Shown piece after piece: positions 3,305 through 21,169 of a DNA stretch of 32,000 bases. Where the stretch lies: contig JAXMOK010000001.1 of NCBI GenBank assembly GCA_034669965.1, positions 814,194 to 846,193 on the forward strand, given 5' to 3'. The translations under genes and the position numbers were made by a program. Numbering within the stretch: position 1 is the stretch's first letter; each line of letters begins with the position of its first letter. Source of the DNA: Balneolaceae bacterium (GTDB lineage: Bacteria; Bacteroidota; Rhodothermia; Balneolales; Balneolaceae). The notes under the pieces were generated by a model. It was not told the origin of the DNA. It made no database searches and was given only the letters and a program-made list of their open reading frames with translations.

Positions 3305-4189
3305 TTAATTCAGATCATCCACTGTAAAAGTTATCATGCCTCTTCGAATCCCCCCTAAAAACCCGATGCCATTATCGATCTGACCGGAATCCAACATATC
3401 AAAAACGTAGTAGTCAGATTCTTCAAATTGTTCCCATTCCGGGCCAAAATGAATGTATCTGATATATACTTCATTGTTATCTAATTGGTGGCATTCAACT
3501 TCCGGTTTCCAAAATTCCGGAGGAACATTCGATGCGCCTTCGCCGCCAATTGGTGGTGGAAATATATCAACTAATAAGTTCCTTACCGTCAGCTCCATGT
3601 CCATGGTATTAGTACCCGGTACATGATCGGGTTCATCAACTCGTTCAACTTCGCCCCAATAGGTTTGTCCATTATAATTCACACCTGCCTCCGCTAAAAT
3701 ATATTCCGGGGCGAGCACATTATCCCATTTAAACCTAACCTTGTGAAAACAGTTTTGTACCGGGTCGCGGCTGACGGTTAAATTGCCAATCCCCGGCATG
3801 GAAAAGGTTGAATGTACAATCTCATCTTCATTGTAGTTCAGCATAAAGGTGTAGGCAACCCGTGGCTGCAGATCTTCCAATACAATAAAATTTAAGGTAT
3901 AATTGCCATTGTAGTCGATGGTTGTATCTCTCAAACCAATAACTTTTCCGCTTTCAACTTCGGTGAGCGAAACTTGGAGATCTTCGTAGCCTACCGAGGA
4001 ATCGGCTAAAAATGGGATGGTTACGTCACGAACTCTGATCAGGTTTTGATCCTCATTCAATTCAACTGCGCCGTAAATAGAATAGGTTCCAATGGTTTCT
4101 TCGAAGGGATTAATAACCCGGTTTTTATTACAGCCCACAATCAAAATAAAAACCATAGTCAGCAACAATAAAGAATAGCGAATATTCAT
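3305..4189 (-). CDS. Lipoprotein of unknown function (possibly DUF4249-like)
   Basis: 294 aa. Signal peptide with lipobox-like LIVGC (MNIRYSLLLLTMVFILIVGCNKN). The C-terminal DNGIGFLGGIRRG motif resembles the conserved G-x-G-x-F-G-G end of DUF4249 lipoproteins. The family assignment rests on memory only. Confidence 0.55.
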   Translation of the reverse strand: MNIRYSLLLLTMVFILIVGCNKNRVINPFEETIGTYSIYGAVELNEDQNLIRVRDVTIPFLADSSVGYEDLQVSLTEVESGKVIGLRDTTIDYNGNYTLNFIVLEDLQPRVAYTFMLNYNEDEIVHSTFSMPGIGNLTVSRDPVQNCFHKVRFKWDNVLAPEYILAEAGVNYNGQTYWGEVERVDEPDHVPGTNTMDMELTVRNLLVDIFPPPIGGEGASNVPPEFWKPEVECHQLDNNEVYIRYIHFGPEWEQFEESDYYVFDMLDSGQIDNGIGFLGGIRRGMITFTVDDLN

Positions 4190-10252: not shown

Positions 10253-10786
10253 TCAGCGGTTAAACTCTATTTCTGCTAATGCTTTCAATATCCCTTTTTT
10301 TATACCGGGACTTAAAGAATTCAGATATTGAGGTTGTGTAATAGCTTCAAGTTCGTTGTGTAATTCAGGATATTTACTCACCATTTCCAAGATATTTTCG
10401 ATTGCTACATACCTAACCGATGATTGCTTACCCACCGACTCCCAAATTGATACGCTGATATCATAAAGCACACTTTCTTGATCATTTGTAAGCTCCAACA
10501 TTTGAAGTAATTTAATCAATTCTCTTTGGTGGCCATCCTCTTTTTTAGGTAAAACCTGCAGAAACCGATCTATATAAGGGATTGCTTGTGCATCATTTTT
10601 ATCCATCGCAGATCTTGTTACCCAAGCCGCTCTCCAACACATTGGTGGTTTATTGGTTAAGCATATCGGTAAAATTTGTTCTATTAATTCCGGATATTCT
10701 CGAATTGTTTGAACTGCTTTCGTCTTAAAATATTTTGAAAGTAGTAGTTCTAAAGGTGGTTGATCCGACATTTGCACGATGTTCAT
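10253..10786 (-). CDS. Hypothetical cytoplasmic helical-repeat (HEAT/ARM-like) protein
   Basis: 177-aa ORF with an ATG start and no signal peptide. The composition looks all-helical. A vague resemblance to DNA-alkylation-repair/HEAT-like proteins is not enough to name it. It lies downstream of an intrinsic terminator, so it is probably its own transcription unit. Confidence 0.5.
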   Translation of the reverse strand: MNIVQMSDQPPLELLLSKYFKTKAVQTIREYPELIEQILPICLTNKPPMCWRAAWVTRSAMDKNDAQAIPYIDRFLQVLPKKEDGHQRELIKLLQMLELTNDQESVLYDISVSIWESVGKQSSVRYVAIENILEMVSKYPELHNELEAITQPQYLNSLSPGIKKGILKALAEIEFNR

Positions 10787-10852: not shown

Positions 10853-10882
10853 AAAAAAGCCTTACTTTCCAGTAAGGCTTTT
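10853..10882 (-). terminator. Rho-independent terminator closing the 10.9-19.3 kb operon
   Basis: Perfect 10-bp stem AAGCCTTACT (10857-10866) / AGTAAGGCTT (10871-10880) with a TTCC loop. On the minus strand it is followed by TTTTTTAT. Confidence 0.75.
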
Positions 10883-11204: not shown

Positions 11205-14132
11205 TTATATTTTTACTCGAAGAGACCCTCCGAATCTTCGTGCACCGGGGCCGGTTAAGTACTCAAAACCTAGATTGTTAACACCTCCTCCATTCGAGTT
11301 TACGTTAGGATCGAAGCCCGTTCCCTCCGGAATATTGTACATTTTCAGAAAGGCATTTTCTACCGAAACGGAAATAATTACCTCTTTTAATCCCGTTTTT
11401 TGTATCCAGTTTTGTGGAATTTGATACGAAAACCCAATGTGTGCAATACGTAAATGAGTCATGTCGTATACTCTAAGCTCATCAGGACCGAACCCTAGAT
11501 TATTGAAGTAATATTGCTGTTTACTAATTTCGATTTCGTTAGGTGAGCCATCAAATTGAACCCCTTCAATTATAAAAGATTCATCCCTGTCTAATGTTGA
11601 AGTAACCAAACCTCTTCCCACCAACGACCCAATCCACGAGCTGTACATGTCGCCACCTTGTTGATAATCAACTTGTAATGTGATAGACAGATTCTTGTAA
11701 TCGAATTGTTGAAGTACAGCAAGGTTCCAATCAGGAACTGGGTTTCCGATAATTGAATTTTGATCGGTGATGTAATTTCCGTTACCGTCGATTATAGGCG
11801 TTCCAATGGGTACGCCTCGCATATTCGGATCTGCTTGTTGCATTTCACGAGTTACTCGCAAAATTGTACTTCCATACATGCTTAAATATGGTTCATTTAT
11901 TTGCGCCAAATTTCCTCTGAATCCTTGACTATGCCCTAACTGAATGGCATTAAATGTACCTGTGTATTCTTTTACATCGGCTTTAGAAGTGCTGAAATTA
12001 GAAGTAATTTGCCAATTTACTTTGCCTTGTACAGGAATAAGTTGGGCTTGAGCATCCAAACCTTCTACTTCCATTTCAAGGAGATTATCTAATATTGAAC
12101 TGTAACCTAAATTCGGATTTACAGCAATCCTCGAAATTAAATCGGTATGAACGCGATTGTAATATTTAAACGATAGCAAAATACGGTTATTCAAAAATCC
12201 TATGGTTGAAGCCCATTGTTTTTCTATGGATCGCTCGGGCTTTAAGTTTTCATTAAAACCAACACTAGCTCGATCTTGAACAAGTATTTCAAGTTCAGTT
12301 AAGATTGATCTCCCTGAAGTCAGATAGGAGTATGAAATATCGAAGTAACTGAATAACTCAGTTCTTGTTGAAAACAATTGTGTTGGGGTAAGTCCGATTG
12401 TTACTGATGGATAGGTAGCTTCCAAATCCTGTTGTTGTAACGATTGATTCCACTGTTTTCGTAACCCAAATGAGCCATAAACCCATTGGTTGTATTTGAT
12501 ATCTAGCGAAGCAAATGCTCCGAGTGAACGCCGTTCAAAATCTCTTTCCATCAATTCGCTAGTAAATGAGTTTGTTGAACTTTGTACTCGAAAATTATCA
12601 TGATCAAACACTCCAAACTCTCTTATATCTGTACTTTCGAGACCTTTTTCATTTATATTTTCACTAATATAATGGGCTCCCAAATTAATCTCCGTCATCA
12701 AGCTTTCAGAGAAATCAGGTCGGATTTTTGCAATAGCAAAATTATCAAGAAGCGTTCTATCAACTTCTATTGTTTGAAATAACCCAAGTGTATAAGGGAA
12801 ATTAAATGTACCATTCGGATTAAGTTTGTACTCTTGATTTTCGTCGTAGCTATCAAAAGTATATTTGTAGTAAAATTCAAAAATATCAGATGGCTTAAAT
12901 GAGAGTGCTGTTTTACCAAGTATTCTATTTGTCTCGTTCGTTGTTGATGCATTATTTACGAACCATTTAGGGTGTATGATATCTTGGCGGTAATACAGGA
13001 ATCCATCGTTATCAGGATTAACATTTGGCATATCTAAATCGATAGACCGCGGCGTAAAAAATAGATAAGTGAAAGCGCCGGTTGTAGCCCCCCCTTCTAC
13101 AACGCCACTCCCGCTCCCCGCCGATTGTGGTGGCATTTTAACATCGGTGAATAAAAACTGAACGCTTGAGTTACCACTTACTTGATTTGTAATTTGATAA
13201 TTCGCCGATGTGCCAAAACTGTTTTTAAGTATAGAGTTGTTTGGAGTGAATCCATCTTCTTGATTTCCAGAGTAATTAAAACTCCACGAAGTTTTTCCCT
13301 TCTTGTAATTAACATCAATGAAAGAACGTGTTGCTATACCATTTCTGAAATATGATTCGATAGGCGTATTTTTGGCTTCATATCGATAAACCTGGGTTGA
13401 ATAATCTGGTGCATCATTTGAAGTAAAATTGTAATACCCATACGGATGATCTACCAGAACTGTACCGTCGTCATCAAGACCATTGTAATTCGATGGAAAG
13501 TTTGCTGGGTCTTGACTGTCAAATGAAGCGCCCCACGTACTATAAAAAGCCCCGTATTGTTCATTAAACCCAATACCATATTTATTTTGATAATCCGGTC
13601 TACTCGATATTGAAGTTGAATAAACACTCTGATCTATGTTGATCTCCAATCCTTCGTTAATCTGCTGTTTTGCTCCTCTGATGGTGTTGATTTCAATCAC
13701 ACCATTCGTTGCTTCTTCGCCATAAATAATTGTTCCTTGTAAAGAGCTAAGTACACGTACATCAATAATTTCAGATGGATGTATATCAAATGATCGGTTT
13801 GGGGTTACTAGAGTTCCTCCTCCGTTAAATGCTGTACTGTTAAAGTTACTAGCACCATCAAAACGAATTCCATCAATAATTATAAGAGGGTCGCTAGAAG
13901 CATTTAAACTCGAATAACTTCGAATAACTGCATTTGTACCTGTACCGGAAACTCCTCCAGTTGCAGTAATTTTTAATCCGGGAGCAAGACCTGACAAAAC
14001 CCTTAGGAAATCAGCTTGGGATACAGATTTAGAAGTGATGATATTTGTTGAATCAGGAAATGATTGAGATTGTACCTGATTAATTCCGAAAAAGAGAAGT
14101 AAAAGCGAAAGTAGATATTTTTTCATAGGCAT
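11205..14132 (-). CDS. TonB-dependent receptor homologue, SusC/RagA-like outer-membrane beta-barrel (plug plus barrel)
   Basis: 975 aa. Signal peptide MPMKKYLLSLLLLFFGINQVQSQ. Plug-domain signature LSGLAPGLKITATGGVSGTGTNAVIRSYSSLNASSDPLIIIDGIRFDG ... IIDVRVLSSLQGTIIYGEEATNGVIEINTIRG, compared with SusC as I remember it. A long beta-rich C-terminal region follows. There is no CarboxypepD_reg N-domain and no susD-like gene downstream. Confidence 0.8.
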   Translation of the reverse strand: MPMKKYLLSLLLLFFGINQVQSQSFPDSTNIITSKSVSQADFLRVLSGLAPGLKITATGGVSGTGTNAVIRSYSSLNASSDPLIIIDGIRFDGASNFNSTAFNGGGTLVTPNRSFDIHPSEIIDVRVLSSLQGTIIYGEEATNGVIEINTIRGAKQQINEGLEINIDQSVYSTSISSRPDYQNKYGIGFNEQYGAFYSTWGASFDSQDPANFPSNYNGLDDDGTVLVDHPYGYYNFTSNDAPDYSTQVYRYEAKNTPIESYFRNGIATRSFIDVNYKKGKTSWSFNYSGNQEDGFTPNNSILKNSFGTSANYQITNQVSGNSSVQFLFTDVKMPPQSAGSGSGVVEGGATTGAFTYLFFTPRSIDLDMPNVNPDNDGFLYYRQDIIHPKWFVNNASTTNETNRILGKTALSFKPSDIFEFYYKYTFDSYDENQEYKLNPNGTFNFPYTLGLFQTIEVDRTLLDNFAIAKIRPDFSESLMTEINLGAHYISENINEKGLESTDIREFGVFDHDNFRVQSSTNSFTSELMERDFERRSLGAFASLDIKYNQWVYGSFGLRKQWNQSLQQQDLEATYPSVTIGLTPTQLFSTRTELFSYFDISYSYLTSGRSILTELEILVQDRASVGFNENLKPERSIEKQWASTIGFLNNRILLSFKYYNRVHTDLISRIAVNPNLGYSSILDNLLEMEVEGLDAQAQLIPVQGKVNWQITSNFSTSKADVKEYTGTFNAIQLGHSQGFRGNLAQINEPYLSMYGSTILRVTREMQQADPNMRGVPIGTPIIDGNGNYITDQNSIIGNPVPDWNLAVLQQFDYKNLSITLQVDYQQGGDMYSSWIGSLVGRGLVTSTLDRDESFIIEGVQFDGSPNEIEISKQQYYFNNLGFGPDELRVYDMTHLRIAHIGFSYQIPQNWIQKTGLKEVIISVSVENAFLKMYNIPEGTGFDPNVNSNGGGVNNLGFEYLTGPGARRFGGSLRVKI

Positions 14133-14177: not shown

Positions 14178-14870
14178 TTAGTTAGAAGCTACTTGATAAT
14201 AAATACGTACAACAATTCTTCTATTCAATGCTCTGTTTTCGATAATATTTCCACCCTCTTCATCAACATGAGGAACTACAGGTTTTGTATCTGCATATCC
14301 TGACGCTTTCAACCTCTCTGCCTCAATGCCTTCTTCGATAAAGTATTTTACTACGCCAGATGCTCTGGCAACAGATAATTCCCAGTTAGAAGGATAGATG
14401 GGGGTGTTGATGGGTACGTTATCTGTGTGACCTTCAACATCAACATTGAACTTATAAAAATCCAGTTCGTTCATTGCCTGTGTAACTTTATCTATAATTA
14501 CCTGACCAGAAGGTAATAATTCAGCCTCGCCCGATTGGTAAAATGAACTACTTGAAAAGTATAGTTTGATCCCGTCACGATCGAGGGTAATATCAACCAA
14601 GCCTTGAGTTTTTTCAACAGCTAACAACGAATCCAAATCTGCTTTAACTTCTGCTAGTGGCGTACGAACATCTTCTTGTTTAGAAATCTCAGAACGTAAA
14701 CCTTGCTTCATCTGCTCCCAGAGATTTAAATCAACGTAAGACACAGCAATTAACATTGCAAAGAACGCGAGTAACAGGGTTATCATATCACTATAAGTGA
14801 GTAACCATTCTTGGTCCTCAACATGCTCTTCCTTTATATCAGAATTTCCGCCGTATTCGCGTTTTATCAC
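14178..14870 (-). CDS. MotB/PomB-like stator subunit with C-terminal OmpA-like peptidoglycan-binding domain
   Basis: 230 aa. GTG start at 14870, preceded by AGGAGG 7 nt upstream. Single TM WLLTYSDMITLLLAFFAMLIA carrying the conserved proton-accepting Asp (residue 28; compare E. coli MotB D32). OmpA_C motifs GHTDNVP...NWELSVARASGVVKY...GYADTKPV...NRALNRRIVVRI. Confidence 0.85.
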   Translation of the reverse strand: MIKREYGGNSDIKEEHVEDQEWLLTYSDMITLLLAFFAMLIAVSYVDLNLWEQMKQGLRSEISKQEDVRTPLAEVKADLDSLLAVEKTQGLVDITLDRDGIKLYFSSSSFYQSGEAELLPSGQVIIDKVTQAMNELDFYKFNVDVEGHTDNVPINTPIYPSNWELSVARASGVVKYFIEEGIEAERLKASGYADTKPVVPHVDEEGGNIIENRALNRRIVVRIYYQVASN

Positions 14871-14883
14871 CGGAAGCCTCCTG

Positions 14884-15702
14884 TTAGTCTGCTACTTGCT
14901 TATTCTTGAAATCTCTTCTTAAATAAGTACTTAATTTATCCTGAATGTAGAAGGATGATTTTTTATCGTTGATCAACAAAATACCTTCGAGAATAAAATA
15001 CTCACGAAACCGGTTAAGTTGAGCTACATTTTTAATCTTCTCGGCAACCGGATAGAAAATAAACCGCGCCAATGATATCCCGTACAGTGTGGTTATCAAT
15101 GCGGCTGCTAATCCCGGCCCCATTCCAGAAGGATTTTCGAGTTGACCAAGCATAACAATCAAACCAAATAAAGTACCAAACATACCAAACGAAGGTGCCG
15201 CAGCTCCCATAGCACGGAGAACATCAACTACTACCAGTTGTCGAAAATATTGCTCTTCAATATGATTAGATCCAAACGACTTGATATCTTCGCTCGAATA
15301 ATTCGTACTCAATAAAGAAAACAAATAACCGGATACCTCACCTATATGCTCGTCTTCGAGTTTGGAAAGCGCAGATACGCGATTATTTTTAATCTGATCG
15401 TTCCAAACAAGCATTTCACCTAAATCAGATTCTAAGGTTTTGGATGATGTTTTAGCTTGGCTAAATAAGTAAAGCAATCCTGCAAACGCTTGCCCAACAT
15501 ATTTTGGTTGATAGGTTATAAACACTGCATTTAGAATACCTCCCATCACTATAAATAAACTTGGAAGGTTTAAAAAGGTGTATTGCGATAGAAAAGGGAT
15601 GGAATTTAAAACGTTTGTAACACTGGTGATTTCGGTAACCCCGAAAACCAGAATTCCTACACTAAAAAGTACCCCTAATATATTTGTTAACGAAAGTCTC
15701 AT
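14884..15702 (-). CDS. MotA/PomA-like stator subunit (MotA/TolQ/ExbB proton-channel family)
   Basis: 272 aa with flagellar-MotA topology: 2 TM, a ~100-aa cytoplasmic loop, 2 TM and a cytoplasmic tail. AAAPSFGMFGTLFGL and ALITTLYGISLARFIFYPVAEKI carry prolines at residues 170 and 218 (compare E. coli MotA P173 and P222). An ATGA overlap links it to the upstream gene. Confidence 0.85.
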   Translation of the reverse strand: MRLSLTNILGVLFSVGILVFGVTEITSVTNVLNSIPFLSQYTFLNLPSLFIVMGGILNAVFITYQPKYVGQAFAGLLYLFSQAKTSSKTLESDLGEMLVWNDQIKNNRVSALSKLEDEHIGEVSGYLFSLLSTNYSSEDIKSFGSNHIEEQYFRQLVVVDVLRAMGAAAPSFGMFGTLFGLIVMLGQLENPSGMGPGLAAALITTLYGISLARFIFYPVAEKIKNVAQLNRFREYFILEGILLINDKKSSFYIQDKLSTYLRRDFKNKQVAD

Positions 15703-16325
15703 TGTCCACCGTCCTCTCGTAGTTCATTAATTAATGTTTCTAATTCCGGAATACTTGGTACAGGAATATTCGGATCCATCTGTACGGCTTTATTCCAATT
15801 TGCCCGAGCTGCAGTAATATTCTCCATCATAAAAAAGATAGTCCCTTTAAGTGCATACGCGTCGGCTGTTTCTTGAATCCTCATCGTTTTTTCAACTTCG
15901 GCTAATGCGTCGTTGTATTCTCCCAAATAAAATAAATCCTGTGCTTTTCTATAACTCGCTAACAATGTTTGTATGTCTCGAGCACGGTTTTTAACTAACG
16001 ATGAATCAACTACAATGATTGAATCGGATTCCGTTGGAGTCATACCTTTCAGATCTAAATAGAATTCATCTTGGCTAGGGTCAAGGGTTACCTGAATAGC
16101 AGAACTTGCATTTCGATAGGTTACGATAACTGGGTTTGGTCGCCTAGTTTCATTTTCCGATTCAGCAGAATTCGAATTACTACTCAATTCCGGAATCGCT
16201 TGAATACCGTTCTGCGGCTCTTCTTGAGCCGCTTCAGATGACTTACAACTATAGCCTGCCATAGCAATCAAAGTCACTAATAGTATTGATTTAAAATCTA
16301 ACAACCGCGTGCACACCATATCCAA
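15699..16325 (-). CDS. TPR-repeat lipoprotein (periplasmic)
   Basis: 208 aa. The track start at 16325 is TTG, and the first ATG is at 16319. N-terminus (M)VCTRLLDFKSILLVTLIAMAGYSC looks like a lipoprotein signal. A low-complexity linker follows, then a TPR-like region (DLFYLGEYNDALAEVEKTMRIQETADAYALKGTIFF...ANWNKAVQMDPN). It overlaps the upstream gene by about 29-35 nt. Confidence 0.65.
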   Translation of the reverse strand: MDMVCTRLLDFKSILLVTLIAMAGYSCKSSEAAQEEPQNGIQAIPELSSNSNSAESENETRRPNPVIVTYRNASSAIQVTLDPSQDEFYLDLKGMTPTESDSIIVVDSSLVKNRARDIQTLLASYRKAQDLFYLGEYNDALAEVEKTMRIQETADAYALKGTIFFMMENITAARANWNKAVQMDPNIPVPSIPELETLINELREDGGQ

Positions 16326-17376
16326 CCTTATTGTATGTTATTCTATCGTTGTTGCTAAGCCGAAGCTCCTCGCCGGATAATATGAGACTTGTATAAAACG
16401 AGAGACCTAAGTTTTTACTCATATTAAACATGATTCCGGGACGGGCCGTAAACATTTCACCTTTTACATTACTAAGGGGAAACTGAACACTGGTATTCAA
16501 GTACACTACCATTCTGTAATTATCAATATCTTCATTTATTTCAGGTGAAAGCGCTTGAAAGTACGTCAAGCCAAAATTTAGTAAGAACAAATTAAATTCA
16601 TCGTCACGGCGCGCGCGTAATATATTTAACCCACCTGTAAAACCGATATATGCACTATTATCTCGATTTAATGGTTGCCGATATGTAAAATTGGCTGAAT
16701 AAGTTAATATTGGATTACTAAATGATGTATCCTGATTTGCAAATGATGTGTCGGCTCTGAATTTTGAATCCGTTTGCATAGACCCTGCTCCTACTTTTAA
16801 TATAAGAGTTTGGCCTTTATCTAGTATTTCCACCACTTCAAAGGGATTTGCAATAAAGCTTTTTGTCCACACAATTTCTCGTGAACGAGGATTCATTATT
16901 CTAATCGACAATATCAATCCGTCAGGGTTACGACGCTGTAAACCAACTTCAATTAGGCCGTTAACACCATACTTTTCAGTAATTTCAGTCAGAAATTCTG
17001 GCGAAACATCAGCAAGTGATCTTCCTTGAATATTTAATATCTGAAGAGTGCTATCGTTCCCCATAATTTTCATCTTATCATTGGGTTCAAGCTCTGGGGG
17101 CGAAAGTACGGTTATACCCGCATACGTTCGCAGTGATGACTCAATCTCGCTTCTGATAAATTCAACCTCTTGAACCGTAAAACGCATTGCGTTATAGTTC
17201 ATTTTATAAACAGCAACGCGCCGAATATTCGCTGGTATGTCGCTCAATTGATCTACCATTTGATTAGTGATCAATCCCATCTGATATGGCACACCTTCTT
17301 CATGGGTTTGTGCCTGTAAATTTTCTACTAAACTAGTAGTTAGTATCAGAAAACTAAACAGTACTACTCTTTTCAT
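16291..17376 (-). CDS. Two-domain outer-membrane protein: periplasmic N-domain (CsgG/FlgO/LpoB-like pattern) plus C-terminal beta-barrel
   Basis: 361 aa. Signal peptide MKRVVLFSFLILTTSLVENLQAQ. The N-half (IRRVAVYKMNYN...GVNGLIEVGLQRR..LILSIRIMNPRSREIVWTKSF) has the pattern seen in CsgG/FlgO-type periplasmic domains. The C-half has alternating hydrophobic strands and ends in the OMP-type terminal HAVVRF. The start lies 2 nt after the upstream stop, with an AGAGGG SD-like element. Confidence 0.6.
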   Translation of the reverse strand: MKRVVLFSFLILTTSLVENLQAQTHEEGVPYQMGLITNQMVDQLSDIPANIRRVAVYKMNYNAMRFTVQEVEFIRSEIESSLRTYAGITVLSPPELEPNDKMKIMGNDSTLQILNIQGRSLADVSPEFLTEITEKYGVNGLIEVGLQRRNPDGLILSIRIMNPRSREIVWTKSFIANPFEVVEILDKGQTLILKVGAGSMQTDSKFRADTSFANQDTSFSNPILTYSANFTYRQPLNRDNSAYIGFTGGLNILRARRDDEFNLFLLNFGLTYFQALSPEINEDIDNYRMVVYLNTSVQFPLSNVKGEMFTARPGIMFNMSKNLGLSFYTSLILSGEELRLSNNDRITYNKVGYGVHAVVRF

Positions 17377-17378
17377 TG

Positions 17379-19325
17379 CTAGCCCTCTGTCTTCATTTTT
17401 CGACGTACAGCATACAATACAGTCTTCTGAGCATCTTCGATTGCTGCTTTTGGTACTTCAGCAGGATTATCAACCTCCGACAATATCAGCTGTTGCTCAC
17501 GTTTCGGCCGAACTTTAAGAATTTTTTCCCTCACAGTAGCGGGTGCCGTTTTAAGTGCGAGAATTAACGTTTCGGTAGGAATATCCTCTAGGGCACTTTG
17601 TACAAAATCGTCTTTAACTTTCGGTAGATCATCAAAACCGATAAAGAATTTCTTAATACGCTTAGCCAAGTTTAAATCTTGTTCGGCAATCGAACGCACA
17701 TAATCGTCTTGCTCAGACAATGGCATAGTTTCTAGAGTAGTAAGAATCGAATCGATACCATCGGCAGCTACATATTTCATATCCGATACAGATAGCGCTT
17801 TATTAGAGAAATGAGCAGCAACTTTTTTATACACCGAAATTGGAATATTATTGATCTTACCCATTTTTAGCAGAATAGAAATCCTTTTTTGTTCATCCAT
17901 TTTCTGAAGGATAACACCGGCTCTTTCCCCAGCAATTTGAGCTAACAATATTGCTACTAATTCATCCGACTCTTCTTTAATGAGGTGCAATAATTGCACA
18001 TCGGTAAGTTGATACACAAAATCGAATAGACTTGAGCCGGAGTCAGCCGTACCATTCTTAGAATTAACCTGCTGAAGACTTCTTCTCAAAGCTTTAACTT
18101 CGTCTATCCTTTCATCGATTGGAATAGATTCTAGGTTTTGAATGGAATATTTAACCGATTCATAGTGCTCCACTTTCAAATGTGGTTCCAGTACATTGAG
18201 CAATTTCTCATCAACACTATTTAATGCTCGAGCCGATCTTATTATTCCCTGCTCATCATCACTAGCAATCCATTGCCCAACTAAATCTGCAACTTTATCT
18301 GGATGACTAATGCATGAATTTGTCACAAACGTTTTATCCTCTTCATGCTGAGCTAATGTTTTAGCATCTGGACCTTTAGGTTCTTCTTTTGTTTCAGTAG
18401 CAGGCATTACAGAAGCGACCTCATATCCAGGCATTGGTTGCATTCTATAATCTTCATCCCTTTTCGAAGGGCGACGTAATAATGCAATTAACAATGCAAT
18501 CAAAAATAAAACACCTAATATTGCTATCACATAAATCAAATGCTGTGGGTTGTTCCAATCAATGCCAAGAAACATGTTCTTTTCTAGCTCAGCTGTTTGT
18601 TGTTGATTTAAAGCCGGATCTAGCATTTCTATCTGTGGCTCTTCCTCATCTGAGTCATCCTTAGTATTTGCTTGGCGGTTTTGAGCATCCTGTTGAATAG
18701 CACGGGCACTTCTTGGAAATACTTTTTTCTCAACCGTTACTATATCGCCACGAAATGGATCCGCATTTGCAATTAAAGACGTGGCCTCTTCAACAAATTC
18801 AACATCTTCATCACTATACGATGTATCAACAAGGACTTTAATGTTTAAGCGGGTCAGCCTGAAACGAGCATCAAACCCGGAGGCTTTTAAACTATCGGTT
18901 GTTCCATTTGTAGACCTTTGAAGATTAGGTGGCACAAACGGAAGACCGGGTAGATTTTCGATACGCACAGGCTCTTCACCTTCGATCACTTCGTATCCTC
19001 TTGGAACCAGCACACGTTCAAGCGAAGCTTTCGCATCTACTATAAACGTACCACGCCGATAATAATCGGAAAGAGCGTTATTTAAAATTACCTCGTAATA
19101 CTGCTCATACTTAGCAGCTTCCTCCTGAACATCGGTAGATACTACCTGTCCGGGTAATGTTTGGGCAATAATACCAGTGCTTAAACAGGTAAATACCAGT
19201 ACTAATAGCCATTTTTGTTTTTTCCCAACCATTTCAAACCCCTGTAGAGTAAGTTGATGCCTGTAGTTTTGAATTTTTTTACGAAAAGAGACTAAGTATG
19301 CAGAAAATTTTAGAGTTTTCCACAT
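17379..19325 (-). CDS. Bitopic inner-membrane protein with a periplasmic FliF/RBM-like region fused to a cytoplasmic full-length FliG-like domain
   Basis: 648 aa. TM/signal anchor at aa ~38-55 (KKQKWLLVLVFTCLSTGIIAQ). Periplasmic region aa ~56-261. TM2 at aa 262-284 (HLIYVIAILGVLFLIALLIALLRR). Cytoplasmic aa ~340-648 align by eye with FliG N/M/C domains: FDFVYQLTDVQLLHLIKEESDELVAILLAQIAGERAGVILQKMDEQKRISILLKM, FFIGFDDLPKVKDDFVQSALEDIPTETLILALKTAPATVREKILKVRPKREQQLILSEVDNPAEVPKAAIEDAQKTVLYAVRRK. An alternative start at M32 (19232) has a better GGGG RBS. Confidence 0.75.
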   Translation of the reverse strand: MWKTLKFSAYLVSFRKKIQNYRHQLTLQGFEMVGKKQKWLLVLVFTCLSTGIIAQTLPGQVVSTDVQEEAAKYEQYYEVILNNALSDYYRRGTFIVDAKASLERVLVPRGYEVIEGEEPVRIENLPGLPFVPPNLQRSTNGTTDSLKASGFDARFRLTRLNIKVLVDTSYSDEDVEFVEEATSLIANADPFRGDIVTVEKKVFPRSARAIQQDAQNRQANTKDDSDEEEPQIEMLDPALNQQQTAELEKNMFLGIDWNNPQHLIYVIAILGVLFLIALLIALLRRPSKRDEDYRMQPMPGYEVASVMPATETKEEPKGPDAKTLAQHEEDKTFVTNSCISHPDKVADLVGQWIASDDEQGIIRSARALNSVDEKLLNVLEPHLKVEHYESVKYSIQNLESIPIDERIDEVKALRRSLQQVNSKNGTADSGSSLFDFVYQLTDVQLLHLIKEESDELVAILLAQIAGERAGVILQKMDEQKRISILLKMGKINNIPISVYKKVAAHFSNKALSVSDMKYVAADGIDSILTTLETMPLSEQDDYVRSIAEQDLNLAKRIKKFFIGFDDLPKVKDDFVQSALEDIPTETLILALKTAPATVREKILKVRPKREQQLILSEVDNPAEVPKAAIEDAQKTVLYAVRRKMKTEG

Positions 19326-19479: not shown

Positions 19480-20745
19480 CTAGTTCTGTCTAGGCATCGA
19501 TTTTAGTACTAAATTTGCCAACTTTTCTTCCAGATACGCCTTTTCACATCGGGTTTTGCTATAATCTATCGCTACCACATAATATGATTTAGCTTTTTCA
19601 AATTCTCCAATTTTTGCATGAACTCTACCTAATGCAGCAAATAACAAAGAAAACTGAACTGAGGACTTCGACTTCAATTTCTTTAAAAGAGTCAGGCTTT
19701 TTTCTACTTCTCCGTATTCACATAGGGCGATTGCTAAACTAGTTTCAACTTGAATCGAATCATCGAAAGAAAGTAACCGTTGGTACAAATCTATGATTCT
19801 CTCCCAATCGGTATCGCTATAGGAATTGGCAGTACTGTGAATTGCAGCAATACCAGACTCAATGTGAAATCTACTTAACCTTTCTGTTATTCTTGATAAT
19901 TTTTGGTGTACTAGTCCTCTGTGAATGAGCTCTCTGTGCCAAAGTTTACGGTTTTGGTCTTCTATACTAATAGGTATCCCTTTGTCATCTACTCTTGCTT
20001 CAAAGCGAGCGAATTGAAATAACATTAAAGCAAATAATGCGTGTGTAGATGCATTGCAAAGAGTTTTATCATCAATAACCCACTCCGTTAATCGCATTGC
20101 TTCGAAACAAATATCGGCATTTACTTCGCTCTCGCTGTTTGAGGTTGAATATCCTTCGTTAAACATCAGATACAGAACCATTTCTACAATGGGTAAACGC
20201 TGTTGTAAATCCTTATCTGTGAGTTCTAGAAAATAGTTCTGATGTTCTTTTAACGTGATTTTTGCTCTATAAATCGCTTTCCTAACCGCTGCAGGCTCCA
20301 TAAAAAAGGCGTTCGCAATTTCTTTATCTCCAAAACCACATACCATTTTTAAAGTGAGCATAATTTGAGATTTAACAGCCAATAATGGGCTACAACAACC
20401 AAATAGTGCTTTTAGCTGAATGGCTTTTTCTTGATGATAAACCGCCCCTATTAAATCAGATTCTTCTTCAATAATTGGTACTAACTTTTTATTTAGTTCT
20501 TTGTGTCGGCCTTTTTTGTTTAACTCATTTATAGTTTTGTTCGTAGCCACTTTCATCAACCAAGCTTCAGGATTCTCGGGAATCCCCTTCATCCCCCAAA
20601 GCCGAAGTGCGGTATAAAATGTGTCTTGAATTGAATCCTCTATCAATTCTGCATTATTGAACCCAAACTTACCAATTAATATAGAAGCCATCTTTCCAGA
20701 CTGTTGCCTGAAAAGATGGTCGAATAGATGGTTTGCTACCTTCAT
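19480..20745 (-). CDS. ECF sigma factor with C-terminal TPR-like extension (ECF42-type)
   Basis: Sigma-70 region 2 (IEDSIQDTFYTALRLWGMKGIPENPEAWLMKVATNKTINELNKKGRH), a region 4-like segment (GFGDKEIANAFFMEPAAVRKAIYRAKITLK) and a ~200-aa helical/TPR-like tail. I chose the ATG at 20745, which forms an ATGA overlap with the stop of the upstream YciI-like gene. The track start at 20808 would overlap that gene by 67 nt. Confidence 0.75.
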   Translation of the reverse strand: MKVANHLFDHLFRQQSGKMASILIGKFGFNNAELIEDSIQDTFYTALRLWGMKGIPENPEAWLMKVATNKTINELNKKGRHKELNKKLVPIIEEESDLIGAVYHQEKAIQLKALFGCCSPLLAVKSQIMLTLKMVCGFGDKEIANAFFMEPAAVRKAIYRAKITLKEHQNYFLELTDKDLQQRLPIVEMVLYLMFNEGYSTSNSESEVNADICFEAMRLTEWVIDDKTLCNASTHALFALMLFQFARFEARVDDKGIPISIEDQNRKLWHRELIHRGLVHQKLSRITERLSRFHIESGIAAIHSTANSYSDTDWERIIDLYQRLLSFDDSIQVETSLAIALCEYGEVEKSLTLLKKLKSKSSVQFSLLFAALGRVHAKIGEFEKAKSYYVVAIDYSKTRCEKAYLEEKLANLVLKSMPRQN

Positions 20746-21086
20746 TTCATTTCGATATGCATAACCGGCCGAATTTCTACCGATCCCCCTAAATTTAATA
20801 TTGGGCATCCTTTTGAGAGTTCGGTTGCTTCTGCAAGGCTGTTCGCTTTAATGATATAAAAACCACTTACCAGTTCTTTTGCCTCGATGTATGGGCCATC
20901 AGTAACCATTCTATCTTTCCCGTGAACAGAAAACGCATCACCTTCTAATGGTTCGCCAGAATCGTAGTGGTCGCCAAGCTCCGCTATCCATTGTCCGTGT
21001 GCATTTATCTCGTTTTGGTATTCCTCAGGCGTCATATTTGCGTAACTATCACCTGATTCAAATAAAATGAGCATATATTTATTCAT
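20742..21086 (-). CDS. YciI/DGPF (YCII-related) domain protein
   Basis: MNKYMLILFESGD...VTDGPYIEAKELVSGFYIIKANSLAEATELSKGCPIL is typical of YCII-related domain proteins. Start chosen at 21086 because AAGGAG lies 7 nt upstream. The track start at 21116 would add 10 aa. Confidence 0.75.
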   Translation of the reverse strand: MNKYMLILFESGDSYANMTPEEYQNEINAHGQWIAELGDHYDSGEPLEGDAFSVHGKDRMVTDGPYIEAKELVSGFYIIKANSLAEATELSKGCPILNLGGSVEIRPVMHIEMK

Positions 21087-21169
21087 CTCGTCTCCTTTTT
21101 TAATATTGATGTACACCCGTAATACAATTGAATGAAAGGAAACGGGACATCACTTAAAAATGCAATGTC

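What the first reader, a model, noticed from the sequence alone, without database searches (positions are those of the whole stretch)
17379..19325. Natural FliF-like/FliG fusion: a FliG N-M-C module tethered directly to a two-TM membrane protein with an RBM-like periplasmic domain
Canonical FliG is a soluble ~330-aa protein that docks on the FliF C-terminus. Here a complete FliG-like module (aa ~340-648, nt 17382-18308) is covalently attached through a ~55-aa acidic linker to TM2 (aa 262-284, nt 18474-18542).

The ~205-aa periplasmic segment between the two TM helices contains a strand-helix-strand stretch (RLTRLNIKVLVDTSYSDEDVEFVEEATSLIANADPFRGDIVTVEKKVF). This stretch resembles the ring-building motifs of FliF/YscJ/SctJ. 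The topology (TM, periplasmic domain, TM, cytoplasmic FliG) is that of a miniaturised MS-ring/C-ring protomer in one polypeptide. The usual FliM-binding context is absent, since there is no fliM/fliN nearby.

The first 31 codons (MWKTLKFSAYLVSFRKKIQNYRHQLTLQGFE) may not be translated. M32 at 19232 has a GGGG RBS-like element 6 nt upstream and gives a canonical positive-then-hydrophobic N-terminus.
Basis: partly seen in the sequence, partly recalled or inferred. Interest (0 to 1): 0.85.

Follow-up and report, generated by a model that had tools for sequence, protein, structure and literature searches.

The report
Non-flagellar FliF–FliG rotor with MotAB
This gene encodes a natural fusion of the two flagellar rotor proteins FliF and FliG. 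It sits in a conserved five-gene operon with the MotA/MotB stator and two envelope proteins, in Balneolaceae; for two genera that carry the module (Balneola, Gracilimonas tropica) one KEGG-based genome comparison reports no flagellar assembly genes. The module therefore looks like a stripped-down rotary motor used for something other than a flagellum.

Summary
ORF 17379-19325 (-) encodes a membrane protein whose C-terminal half is a complete FliG (N, M and C domains). Its periplasmic part is homologous in sequence and fold to the RBM3/beta-collar (S-ring) of FliF.

The fusion is collinear with adjacent fliF and fliG genes. The FliF transmembrane helix 2 and the FliG-binding C-terminal tail are both present, and the tail runs directly into FliG_N.

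- The N-terminal hydrophobic segment looks like a cleavable signal peptide (…IIA|Q), not a first transmembrane helix.

The order fliFG, outer-membrane protein (361 aa), TPR lipoprotein, motA, motB is kept in all 40 orthologous loci whose contigs reach that far (of 41 found). Relatives at 23-34% identity also sit next to motA/motB.

RBM1/RBM2, the FliM-binding EHPQR motif, and fliM/fliN or any export, rod or filament gene are absent from the window. Gracilimonas tropica carries the module, is described as non-motile, and is reported to lack flagellar assembly genes.

dN/dS is 0.05. I found no published description. The most likely reading is a MotAB-driven FliF-FliG ring coupled to outer-membrane partners, with unknown output.

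The parts
17379..19232 (-). fliFG: 617-aa FliF(RBM3/collar)-TM-FliF C-tail-FliG(N-M-C) fusion; real start M32 of the listed ORF; stop codon TAG at 17379-17381
19233..19325 (-). The 31 upstream codons of the listed ORF, probably untranslated 5' region. Contains the conserved motif TGTGGAAAAC-N13-GCATACTT (19294-19324) and an AGGGG element just upstream of the ATG
   Evidence: In-frame stops in most orthologues. Motif invariant in 13 aligned upstream regions. Coordinates checked
19164..19232 (-). Predicted Sec signal peptide MVGKKQKWLLVLVFTCLSTGIIA, followed by the invariant Q24
   Evidence: Short h-region. The sequence is not conserved but A/G-Q is. The Cys is not conserved, so it is not a lipobox. 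Cleavage is inferred from the Bacteroidetes Q-rule (PMC5837995), not tested
18660..19142 (-). Periplasmic RBM3 plus beta-collar-like domain (aa 31-191): helix 33-55, long strands 63-82 and 115-135, helix 141-154, strand 164-169, helix 176-191
   Evidence: AF2 pLDDT above 90 for most of it. Foldseek matches FliF S-ring chains 8z5v_A, 7cg7_A, 8z4d, 6sd1 at E 4e-4 to 1e-3, TM-score normalised to target length 0.52-0.55. YscJ_FliF_C hits. FliF 6scn_A at E 2.3e-7
18921..18959 (-). ENLPGLPFVPPNL motif in the loop joining the two long collar strands; P-G-L-P kept in at least 90% of 79 diverse relatives
   Evidence: Its role as a partner-binding tip is inference
18546..18572 (-). FLGIDWNNP juxtamembrane motif, invariant in all but the Ile among 22 aligned orthologues and slightly less strict among 43; preceded by a disordered acidic segment (18573-18659)
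18477..18548 (-). Transmembrane helix, equivalent to FliF TM2
   Evidence: Hydropathy; AF2 helix 229-252; aligned to E. coli FliF TM2 region
18258..18368 (-). Homologue of the FliF C-terminal FliG-binding tail (…HPDKVADLVGQWIASD), preceded by a 36-aa disordered linker (18369-18476)
   Evidence: The profile alignment runs to the last residues of E. coli FliF (…VALVIRQWINNDHE). W321 is kept in at least 90% of relatives. pLDDT above 90
18057..18257 (-). FliG_N domain
   Evidence: Profile against 3hjl_A FliG 13-323 and 5tdy_B. Foldseek full-length FliG alignments of 306-318 columns. FliG_N in 45 of 79 relatives
17784..18023 (-). FliG_M domain; the EHPQR FliM-binding motif is replaced (EESDE…K)
17382..17765 (-). 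FliG_C domain with torque helix RPKREQQLILSEVDN (17466-17510). R578 corresponds to E. coli R281 and E586 to D289
16291..17376 (-). 361-aa secreted protein: signal peptide (…LQA|Q), conserved roughly 150-aa periplasmic domain, C-terminal beta-barrel-like half ending in …VVRF. No known family
   Evidence: Starts 2 nt after the fliFG stop. Conserved in 40 loci. Alignment A4. No PDB or Pfam match apart from weak OMP_b-brl hits
15699..16325 (-). About 206-aa TPR lipoprotein (lipobox …AGYSC). Its C-terminal TPR domain recurs in all variant loci
14884..15702 (-). motA: PomA/MotP-like flagellar-type stator A subunit. P170 and P218 correspond to E. coli P173 and P222. Invariant R108-x7-E116 in the cytoplasmic loop
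14178..14870 (-). motB: plug, TM helix with the channel Asp (D28, E. coli D32), OmpA-like peptidoglycan-binding domain
11205..14132 (-). Divergent SusC/RagA-like outer-membrane protein. Possibly co-transcribed here, but not part of the conserved module

Best explanation
The gene encodes the rotor subunit of a minimal, non-flagellar rotary motor.

Shown:
- The protein is an end-to-start fusion of FliF and FliG that keeps only the S-ring part of FliF: RBM3 plus beta-collar, TM2 and the FliG-binding tail.
- All three FliG domains are present.
- It is encoded in a strictly conserved operon with a flagellar-type MotA/MotB stator, a TPR lipoprotein and a secreted protein with an outer-membrane beta-barrel signature.
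- The gene is under strong purifying selection.

Inferred:
- After signal-peptide cleavage, subunits assemble through the RBM3/collar domain into a ring in the inner membrane. Each subunit carries its own FliG.
- MotA5B2 units are anchored to peptidoglycan by the MotB OmpA-like domain and opened by plug release. They conduct ions through the conserved MotB Asp.
- They push on the FliG_C torque helix through complementary charges: FliG R578/E586 and MotA R108/E116.
- With no FliM/FliN switch the ring would turn without chemotactic switching.
- With no RBM1/RBM2, export gate, rod, hook or filament, the torque is passed from the periplasmic collar to the TPR lipoprotein and the 361-aa outer-membrane protein. 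The invariant LPGLPF tip is the likely contact.
- This would drive an unknown process at the outer membrane or cell surface.
For: Domain identity
- FliG_C and FliG_M pass Pfam cutoffs.
- All 79 diverse relatives have FliG_C, 72 have FliG_M, 45 have FliG_N and 16 have YscJ_FliF_C.
- The family profile hits FliG 3hjl_A over residues 13-323 (E 5e-39) and FliF 6scn_A over 404-560 (E 2e-7).
- The alignment reaches the last residue of E. coli FliF.
- The AF2 model has pLDDT 85. Foldseek finds full-length FliG and then FliF S-ring/RBM3-collar chains.

Torque interface
- The FliG R281 equivalent is R or K in 78 of 79 relatives.
- The D289 equivalent is E in the window protein.
- MotA keeps both channel prolines, MotB keeps the Asp and the plug.
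- MotA has an invariant R-x7-E pair with the spacing of E. coli R90/E98.
- The stator is flagellar-type: best NCBIfam matches are MotP/PomA (E 1e-27 to 1e-31), against TolQ/ExbB at 1e-3 or worse.

Operon
- The genes are 2 nt apart, overlapping, or within 13 nt.
- The five-gene order is identical in all 40 Balneolaceae loci whose contigs reach that far, of 41 found.
- Members at 23-34% identity also lie beside motA/motB and a TPR protein.

Selection: dN/dS is 0.049 overall, 0.056 for the periplasmic domain and 0.025 for FliG.

Not a flagellum
- No other flagellar gene lies in 32 kb.
- Gracilimonas tropica DSM 19535 carries the module (L026). It is listed as non-motile (PMC5167729) and as lacking flagellar assembly genes (PMC9909488).

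Precedent: engineered FliF-FliG fusions assemble rings and, in Salmonella, support rotation (PMC4768692; PMC11481574 and PMC10941966 abstracts).
Against: - No oligomer was modelled, so ring formation is inferred only from homology to a ring-forming domain.
- Rotation, ion coupling and any contact with the 361-aa protein or the TPR lipoprotein are untested.
- The assignment of MotA R108/E116 to R90/E98 rests on spacing and invariance. Automated alignments placed the gap differently.
- D288 is Ser, and the D289 equivalent is acidic in only about 40% of relatives.
- I could not scan whole genomes for flagellar genes, so absence rests on one KEGG-based paper.
- The same paper reports incomplete flagellar pathways in Aliifodinibius, and flagella were reported for Balneola vulgaris.
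- No output device such as a filament, adhesin or track is identified in the Balneolaceae operon.
Confidence: 0.6

Rival explanations
1. It is the rotor of a genuine but atypical flagellum. The fused FliF-FliG replaces separate FliF and FliG, and the export apparatus, rod, hook, filament and switch are encoded elsewhere in the genome.
For: Every recognisable part is flagellar: FliF, FliG, MotA and MotB. Flagella and motility were reported for Balneola vulgaris, and the family description allows flagellar motility (PMC5167729). Some Balneolaceae (Aliifodinibius) keep partial flagellar gene sets (PMC9909488). Engineered FliF-FliG fusions work in Salmonella flagella.
Against: - RBM1 and RBM2, which surround the export gate, are missing.
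- The EHPQR FliM-binding motif is not conserved.
- TIGR00207 fliG scores 86 against a cutoff of 227.
- The operon partners are an outer-membrane barrel-like protein and a TPR lipoprotein, not flagellar genes.
- G. tropica has the module but is non-motile and is reported to lack flagellar assembly genes.
- The Balneola genus is likewise reported to lack them.
Confidence: 0.12
2. The complex is a non-rotating or only locally moving envelope energiser or tether. MotAB uses the ion gradient and the FliF-FliG protein acts as an adaptor or scaffold. It links the stator to the TPR lipoprotein and outer-membrane protein for outer-membrane maintenance, uptake or signalling, in the manner of Tol-Pal, Ton or the GldLM/PorLM systems.
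For: The operon couples a 5:2-type motor to a TPR lipoprotein and an outer-membrane protein, as Tol-Pal/CpoB does. A SusC-like barrel follows motB in this lineage with no intervening terminator. Distant loci carry large TPR-ended envelope proteins. Many 5:2 motors drive non-rotary outputs (PMC12204202).
Against: - The partner is FliG with its torque helix, plus the ring-forming S-ring domain. Both are known only from a rotating ring.
- The stator is of the flagellar clade with a plug, not TolQR/ExbBD-like.
- The SusC-like gene is present in only 7 of 41 loci and is unrelated to the large proteins of the distant loci.
Confidence: 0.2
3. It is an evolutionary leftover of a lost flagellum with no present function.
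For: PMC9909488 proposes gradual loss of flagellar genes in Balneolaceae.
Against: - dN/dS is about 0.05 with intact ORFs in 41 genomes.
- The five-gene order is strictly conserved.
- The architecture is kept down to 17-25% identity across 79 cluster representatives.
- Dedicated non-flagellar partners are present.
- A conserved upstream DNA motif is present.
Confidence: 0.03

Closest known systems
Flagellar MS-ring/C-ring rotor (FliF plus FliG) with the MotAB/PomAB stator
   Same: - The RBM3/beta-collar fold, TM2, the FliF C-tail followed by FliG_N, FliG_M, and FliG_C with a conserved torque-helix Arg.
- MotA channel prolines, and the MotB Asp, plug and OmpA-like domain.
- The fliF-to-fliG gene order.
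   Different: - One polypeptide instead of two.
- No RBM1/RBM2.
- A probable cleaved signal peptide instead of TM1.
- No EHPQR motif, and no FliM/FliN.
- No export gate, rod, hook or filament genes nearby.
- The partners are an outer-membrane barrel-like protein and a TPR lipoprotein.
- Some hosts are reported to be non-motile and without flagellar genes.
Chlamydiaceae natural FliF-FliG fusion (Bergeron 2016, PMC4768692)
   Same: A natural fusion of a shortened FliF (signal or TM, RBM-type periplasmic region, TM) to a FliG-like cytoplasmic domain, in an organism without flagella.
   Different: - The chlamydial protein is about 330 aa. It keeps RBM2 plus an unassigned RBM-like region and only a FliG_M-like domain.
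- It is discussed as a possible injectisome partner (SctQ), and no MotAB is associated with it.
- The protein here keeps RBM3/collar and complete FliG N-M-C, and it is operonic with MotAB.
Engineered FliF-FliG fusions of Salmonella and Vibrio (Francis 1992; Thomas 2001; PMC11481574; PMC10941966)
   Same: The FliF C-terminus is joined to the FliG N-terminus. These fusions assemble MS-rings, and the Salmonella ones rotate. This shows the covalent link is compatible with function.
   Different: The engineered proteins are laboratory constructs with full-length FliF inside complete flagella. This one is natural, truncated and non-flagellar in context.
Other 5:2 ion-driven motors with non-flagellar outputs (GldLM/PorLM, AglRQS, TolQR, ExbBD, ZorAB)
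   Same: A MotA/MotB-family motor is used to power an envelope process other than flagellar rotation.
   Different: None of those uses FliG or an MS-ring. Their force transducers are GldM/PorM, TolA, TonB or the ZorA tail. Here MotA has no PADLOC ZorA match, and ZorC/ZorD are absent.

Membership tests
FliG (flagellar rotor/switch protein) | FliG_C armadillo domain with torque helix carrying conserved charges (E. coli R281, D288/D289) | tested here: met
   PF01706 E 1.2e-19. The R281 equivalent is R or K in 78 of 79 relatives. D289 is E and D288 is S in the window protein.
FliG (flagellar rotor/switch protein) | FliG_M and FliG_N domains in N-M-C order | tested here: met
   PF14841 E 5e-8. Profile against full-length FliG 3hjl_A residues 13-323. 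Foldseek aligns 306-318 columns to full-length FliG structures.
FliG (flagellar rotor/switch protein) | EHPQR motif of FliG_M that binds FliM | tested here: not met
   The window has E-S-D-E…K at the E125-H126-P127-Q128…R160 positions. Only the first Glu is common in the family.
FliG (flagellar rotor/switch protein) | Scores as an equivalog of flagellar FliG (TIGR00207) | tested here: not met
   85.9 bits against a cutoff of 226.7.
FliG (flagellar rotor/switch protein) | Soluble stand-alone protein of about 330 aa, encoded with fliM/fliN and other flagellar genes | tested here: not met
   It is the C-terminal half of a 617-aa membrane protein. No fliM or fliN lies in 32 kb.
FliF (MS-ring protein) | RBM3 with beta-collar (S-ring) | tested here: met
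   Foldseek matches S-ring chains at E 4e-4 to 1e-3, TM-score normalised to target length 0.52-0.55. YscJ_FliF_C in 16 of 79 relatives, best 7e-8. FliF 6scn_A at E 2.3e-7.
FliF (MS-ring protein) | TM2 followed by a C-terminal tail that binds FliG_N | tested here: met
   The profile alignment covers E. coli FliF 396-552, ending at …VALVIRQWINNDHE against …VADLVGQWIASDDE. Binding itself was not tested.
FliF (MS-ring protein) | RBM1 and RBM2 (SctJ-homology region, Pfam YscJ_FliF PF01514) | tested here: not met
   No such Pfam hit. Only about 30 residues lie between the signal peptide and the RBM3 helix.
FliF (MS-ring protein) | Uncleaved N-terminal TM1 | tested here: inconclusive
   The h-region is about 15-17 residues, variable in sequence, and ends A/G followed by an invariant Q. 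This fits SPase I cleavage and the Q-rule (PMC5837995). No signal-peptide predictor or proteomics was available.
FliF (MS-ring protein) | Assembles into a ring of about 33-34 subunits | not testable with these tools
   Only monomer prediction was available.
Flagellar stator MotA/MotB (PomAB-like) | MotA_ExbB channel domain with the two conserved prolines; MotB plug, channel Asp and OmpA-like domain | tested here: met
   PF01618, PF13677 and PF00691. P173, P222 and D32 equivalents are conserved. Best NCBIfam matches are MotP/PomA/MotD/MotS, all below equivalog cutoffs.
Flagellar stator MotA/MotB (PomAB-like) | Cytoplasmic-loop charges R90/E98 that meet FliG | tested here: inconclusive
   An invariant R108-x7-E116 has the same spacing and local context as …SR90QMGMFSLE98RD…. 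MAFFT and HMM alignments do not fix the correspondence.
Chlamydiaceae FliF-FliG fusion | About 330 aa; RBM2-type periplasmic region; FliG_M-like cytoplasmic domain only | tested here: not met
   617 aa, RBM3/collar, and full FliG N-M-C, compared with the description in PMC4768692. I had no chlamydial sequence for a direct comparison.
Zorya anti-phage system (ZorAB plus ZorC/D/E) | ZorA with a long tail, ZorB, and effector genes | tested here: not met
   Only generic ZorB/MotB matches. No ZorA, ZorC or ZorD matches for any of the six proteins.

The most novel reading that the evidence does not exclude
The fliFG-motAB module may be a free-standing rotary engine that is not a degenerate flagellum. 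It could be a surviving relative of a pre-flagellar or para-flagellar rotor: an S-ring plus a FliG ring turned by MotAB, without a type III export apparatus.

Such an engine would drive a different surface device through outer-membrane partners. In distant relatives the same rotor sits beside clusters of small secreted DUF4402 proteins and large TPR-ended envelope proteins (L045, L047). These could be a non-flagellar appendage or track that it rotates.

This would show that the flagellar torque-generating core can exist and function independently of the secretion system. That bears directly on how the flagellum originated.
Probability: 0.3. Interest if true: 0.95.

Novelty: new variant of a known kind. 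Interest (0 to 1): 0.8.

Why it matters
FliG and the MS-ring are known only as parts of the flagellum, apart from the truncated chlamydial protein of unknown role.

This module is conserved, strongly selected and operon-encoded, and it combines rotor, stator and outer-membrane partners. At least some carriers are reported to have no flagellar genes. Two readings follow:
- The flagellar torque core has been re-used for another envelope function.
- Or such a core can stand alone, which feeds the long-running question of whether rotation or secretion came first in flagellar evolution.

It also offers an unusually simple experimental system for rotor-stator mechanics. There is one rotor gene, no switch and no export gate. 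Cultured hosts are available: Gracilimonas tropica DSM 19535 and Balneola sp. EhC07.

Finally, it corrects public annotations that call these proteins 'flagellar motor switch protein FliG' or 'hypothetical'.

Tried and rejected
- **Weak first model.** The first AF2 model used close homologues only (A2, 43 sequences). It gave pLDDT 65 and an unreliable periplasmic domain. I replaced it with a model from 79 diverse representatives.
- **Related-loci search.** The search for related loci failed with the diverse alignment because no conserved stretch was found, so I used A2.
- **SusC-like gene.** I considered the SusC-like protein (11205-14132) as the output device and rejected it as a core part. 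It is present in only 7 of 41 loci and is unrelated to the large proteins of the distant loci.
- **ECF42-like sigma factor and YCII gene.** I considered them as dedicated regulators. Their position relative to fliFG varies or they are absent.
- **Zorya-like defence.** Rejected.
- **MgtE_N-only helical repeat.** Rejected, because FliG_C and the full FliG fold are present.
- **The 361-aa protein.** No PDB or Pfam relative was found, so its fold is unknown beyond a beta-barrel signature.
- **Distant-locus proteins.** DUF4402, the roughly 280-aa proteins and the 962-aa protein gave nothing informative against the PDB. No paper mentions DUF4402.
- **Literature.** Nine full-text searches found no description of this family. 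Absence from the held library is not proof of novelty.
- **Taxonomy of the most distant members.** The profile search of the protein database and the cluster look-up returned no taxon names for them. One 32%-identity member was placed in Balneolales through its YchF neighbour.
- **LysM-RBM3 proteins.** These are a separate family, not linked to motAB.


Full report
**1. The observation**

The ORF listing returns a 648-codon ORF at 17379-19325 on the minus strand.
- Pfam finds FliG_C (E 1.2e-19, ORF aa 545-645) and FliG_M (5.3e-8).
- NCBIfam's fliG equivalog model matches at 86 bits, far below its cutoff of 227.
- Hydropathy shows one strong helix (ORF aa 260-283) and a weaker, shorter N-terminal hydrophobic segment (aa 39-59).

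So the described object is real.

**2. Start codon and topology**

- The 120 homologues listed cover 92-96% of the ORF. In the alignment of 21 of them, none starts upstream of the M32 position, and all but one begin exactly there, MVGK…/MAGN….
- In most of the 41 orthologous genomic loci the 31 upstream codons contain in-frame stops. M32 (nt 19232) is therefore the start. I use M32 numbering below (617 aa).
- The upstream 'codons' are in fact a conserved non-coding element, TGTGGAAAAC-N13-GCATACTT (19294-19324). It is invariant in 13 aligned upstream regions.
- The N-terminal segment has a basic n-region and a 15-17-residue h-region of variable sequence. It ends in A/G followed by a Gln that is invariant among the 43 closer orthologues and remains the consensus in the 79 diverse relatives. 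The Cys is not conserved, so it is not a lipobox.
- The 361-aa neighbour and the SusC-like protein also have Q after a plausible cleavage site. This fits the Bacteroidetes Q-rule for signal peptidase I substrates (PMC5837995).
- I infer a cleaved signal peptide, giving a single-pass protein rather than the two-TM topology of FliF. This was not tested.

**3. What the protein is**

A phmmer search of 1.84 billion cluster representatives with aa 1-269 found 127 clusters, most of them proteins of about 600 aa. I aligned 79 full-length members (17-50% identical to the window protein, A3).
- Pfam domains across the 79: all have FliG_C, 72 have FliG_M, 45 have FliG_N and 16 have YscJ_FliF_C (best 7e-8).
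- The A3 profile hits full-length Aquifex FliG (3hjl_A residues 13-323, E 4.8e-39).
- Separately it hits Salmonella FliF (6scn_A residues 404-560, E 2.3e-7).
- Against E. coli FliF the alignment runs from RBM3b (including a shared RGD motif), through TM2, to the last residues of FliF: …VALVIRQWINNDHE against …VADLVGQWIASDDEQG. E. coli fliF and fliG are adjacent and overlapping.
- The protein is therefore an end-to-start fusion of the two genes. It retains the FliF tail that normally binds FliG_N.

AlphaFold2 with A3 gave mean pLDDT 85, and above 90 for the periplasmic domain and all FliG domains.
- The periplasmic domain is: helix 33-55, long strand 63-82, a loop carrying the near-invariant LPGLPF motif, long strand 115-135, helix 141-154, strand 164-169, helix 176-191.
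- Foldseek against the PDB returns full-length FliG first (E 7e-10 to 1e-7, 306-318 aligned columns).
- Next come FliF S-ring / RBM3-beta-collar chains (8z5v_A, 7cg7_A, 8z4d, 6sd1 and others; E 4e-4 to 1.5e-3; TM-score normalised to target length 0.52-0.55).
- The domain is thus RBM3 plus collar. RBM1 and RBM2 are absent.

**4. Residue-level checks**

| Feature (E. coli numbering) | Finding |
|---|---|
| FliG R281 | R in 71 and K in 7 of 79 relatives; window R578 |
| FliG D289 | E586 in the window; acidic in about 40% of relatives |
| FliG D288 | Ser |
| FliG EHPQR (binds FliM) | Not conserved: E-S-D-E…K |
| MotA P173, P222 | Kept |
| MotB D32, plug, OmpA-like domain | Kept |

- The best NCBIfam matches for MotA and MotB are MotP/PomA/MotD/MotS rather than TolQR/ExbBD.
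- The MotA cytoplasmic loop has invariant D93, R108, E116, E118, E150 and R154.
- R108-x7-E116 (…NRVSALSKLEDE…) reproduces the spacing and context of E. coli R90-x7-E98 (…SRQMGMFSLERD…). Automated alignments do not settle the correspondence.

**5. Context**

On the minus strand the genes run in this order:
- fliFG (17379-19232)
- a 361-aa secreted protein (16291-17376)
- a TPR lipoprotein (15699-16325)
- motA (14884-15702)
- motB (14178-14870)
- a divergent SusC-like protein (11205-14132)

The first five are 2 nt apart, overlapping, or within 13 nt of each other. No terminator-like hairpin occurs before 10855-10882. No other flagellar or chemotaxis gene lies in the window.

A scan of one genome per GTDB species found 41 loci, all Balneolaceae/Balneola/Gracilimonas or unclassified MAGs.
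- The five-gene order is identical in every one of the 40 loci whose contig reaches that far. The SusC-like gene occurs only in the seven closest, and the ECF sigma/YCII pair varies in position.
- The 361-aa protein has a conserved periplasmic domain of about 150 aa and a C-terminal half that ends …RF. It gives weak OMP_b-brl hits and has no PDB relative.
- The TPR protein has a conserved lipobox.

**6. Distant relatives**

Members at 23-34% identity also sit next to motA/motB.
- L049 has the same five-gene order.
- L044 has a TPR gene, motA and motB after fliFG.
- L046 has an OMP_b-brl+TPR protein before fliFG, and a small TPR-like protein, motA and motB after it. It is Balneolales by its YchF neighbour.
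- L045 and L047 have several small DUF4402 or unknown secreted proteins, two paralogues of about 280 aa, and a 962-978-aa protein ending in a TPR domain. fliFG, a 156-aa TPR-like protein (L047 only; in L045 motA follows fliFG directly), motA and motB follow.
- The C-terminal TPR domain of the window lipoprotein is homologous to all of these TPR parts.
- The conserved core is therefore fliFG plus motA plus motB, usually with a small TPR protein. The outer-membrane components vary.

**7. Is it functional, and is the host flagellated?**

- dN/dS against the closest orthologue is 0.049 (dS 0.80). It is 0.056 for the periplasmic domain and 0.025 for the tail plus FliG. It is higher (0.10-0.11) in the two disordered linkers.
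- G. tropica DSM 19535 carries the module (L026). It is tabulated as non-motile (PMC5167729). A KEGG-based comparison reports that Balneola, Fodinibius, Rhodohalobacter, G. amylolytica and G. tropica lack flagellar assembly genes, while Aliifodinibius keeps an incomplete set (PMC9909488).
- Flagella were reported for Balneola vulgaris.
- I could not scan whole genomes myself.

**8. Mechanism**

Shown: the rotor-type and stator-type parts, their co-conservation, and the loss of the switch-binding and export-gate-housing parts.

Inferred: the protein forms a ring through RBM3/collar, with one FliG per subunit. MotAB units turn it through the torque-helix charges. There is no switching. The collar, whose tip motif LPGLPF is conserved across the whole family, couples to the TPR lipoprotein and the outer-membrane protein. 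The output is unknown.

Engineered FliF-FliG fusions that assemble and rotate show that the covalent link is tolerated.

**9. Comparison and novelty**

The nearest precedent is the chlamydial FliF-FliG(M) fusion (PMC4768692). It differs in which RBMs and which FliG domains are kept, and it has no MotAB.

The protein fails membership tests for canonical FliG: the equivalog score, EHPQR, and the stand-alone and contextual criteria. It also fails for canonical FliF, because RBM1/2 are missing. It is nevertheless clearly homologous to both.

Nine literature searches found no description of the family or the operon. Public names are 'FliG C-terminal domain-containing protein', 'flagellar motor switch protein FliG' or 'hypothetical protein'.

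I rate it a new variant of a known kind, with a substantial chance that the system as a whole is a new kind of machine.

Noticed in passing
window 19294-19324 (-): The DNA motif TGTGGAAAAC-N13-GCATACTT lies 61 nt upstream of the real fliFG start codon. Its two core blocks, TGTGGAAAAC and CATACT, are invariant across 13 orthologous upstream regions that are otherwise poorly conserved. It lies inside the spurious first 31 codons of the listed ORF. It may be a promoter for an alternative sigma factor or a regulator site. It does not fit sigma-70, sigma-54 or the Bacteroidetes TAnnTTTG consensus by eye.
   Followed up: partly
window 11205-14132 (-): A 975-aa divergent SusC/RagA-like outer-membrane protein scores 245 bits on TIGR04056, below the cutoff of 368, and has no Pfam TonB-dependent-receptor hit. 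It lies 45 nt after motB with no terminator until the hairpin at 10855-10882, and it has no SusD-like partner. It is present only in the seven closest genomes, so it is probably a lineage-specific passenger of the operon.
   Followed up: partly
window 19480-21116 (-): A 442-aa sigma-70-family protein carries DUF6596 and a C-terminal TPR. From memory this resembles the ECF42 type. An overlapping YCII-domain gene precedes it. The pair is conserved in many Balneolaceae, but its distance from fliFG varies.
   Followed up: partly
proteins P0169, P0171, P0200, P0206, P0219; loci L051, L052: A separate family of roughly 300-aa proteins combines an N-terminal LysM domain with an RBM3-like (YscJ_FliF_C) domain related to the periplasmic part of the fusion. 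In the 11-kb contig examined (L051) it is not next to motAB or any FliG gene. It may be another non-flagellar use of the S-ring fold.
   Followed up: partly
loci L045 (259-7986) and L047 (2820-9989): In relatives of fliFG at 23% identity, the rotor and motAB are preceded by several small secreted proteins (some DUF4402), one (L047) or two (L045) proteins of about 280 aa, and a 962-978-aa protein with a weak (below-cutoff) CarboxypepD_reg-like match and a C-terminal TPR domain. A protein with a T9SS C-terminal sorting domain lies upstream in L047. The arrangement is reminiscent of a fibre- or appendage-assembly cluster, but no family could be assigned.
   Followed up: partly
window 19161-19163, 17308-17310 and about 14067-14069 (-): Three secreted proteins of the operon have Gln immediately after the predicted signal-peptidase I site: FliFG IIA|QT, the 361-aa protein LQA|QT, and the SusC-like protein VQS|QS. 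This suggests the Bacteroidetes Q-rule (N-terminal pyroglutamate) also operates in this Balneolaceae organism.
   Followed up: no
window 14884-15702 (-), MotA residue 177: The position of E. coli MotA A180 is Thr in all 41 orthologues. From memory, Thr near this position is associated with Na+-coupled PomA-type stators. That would fit the marine or saline habitats of Balneolaceae, but ion specificity was not tested.
   Followed up: no
window 10253-10786 (-) and 3305-4189 (-): Two conserved ORFs (177 aa and 294 aa) have no Pfam or NCBIfam match. The 177-aa gene is syntenic downstream of the SusC-like gene in the closest genomes.
   Followed up: no
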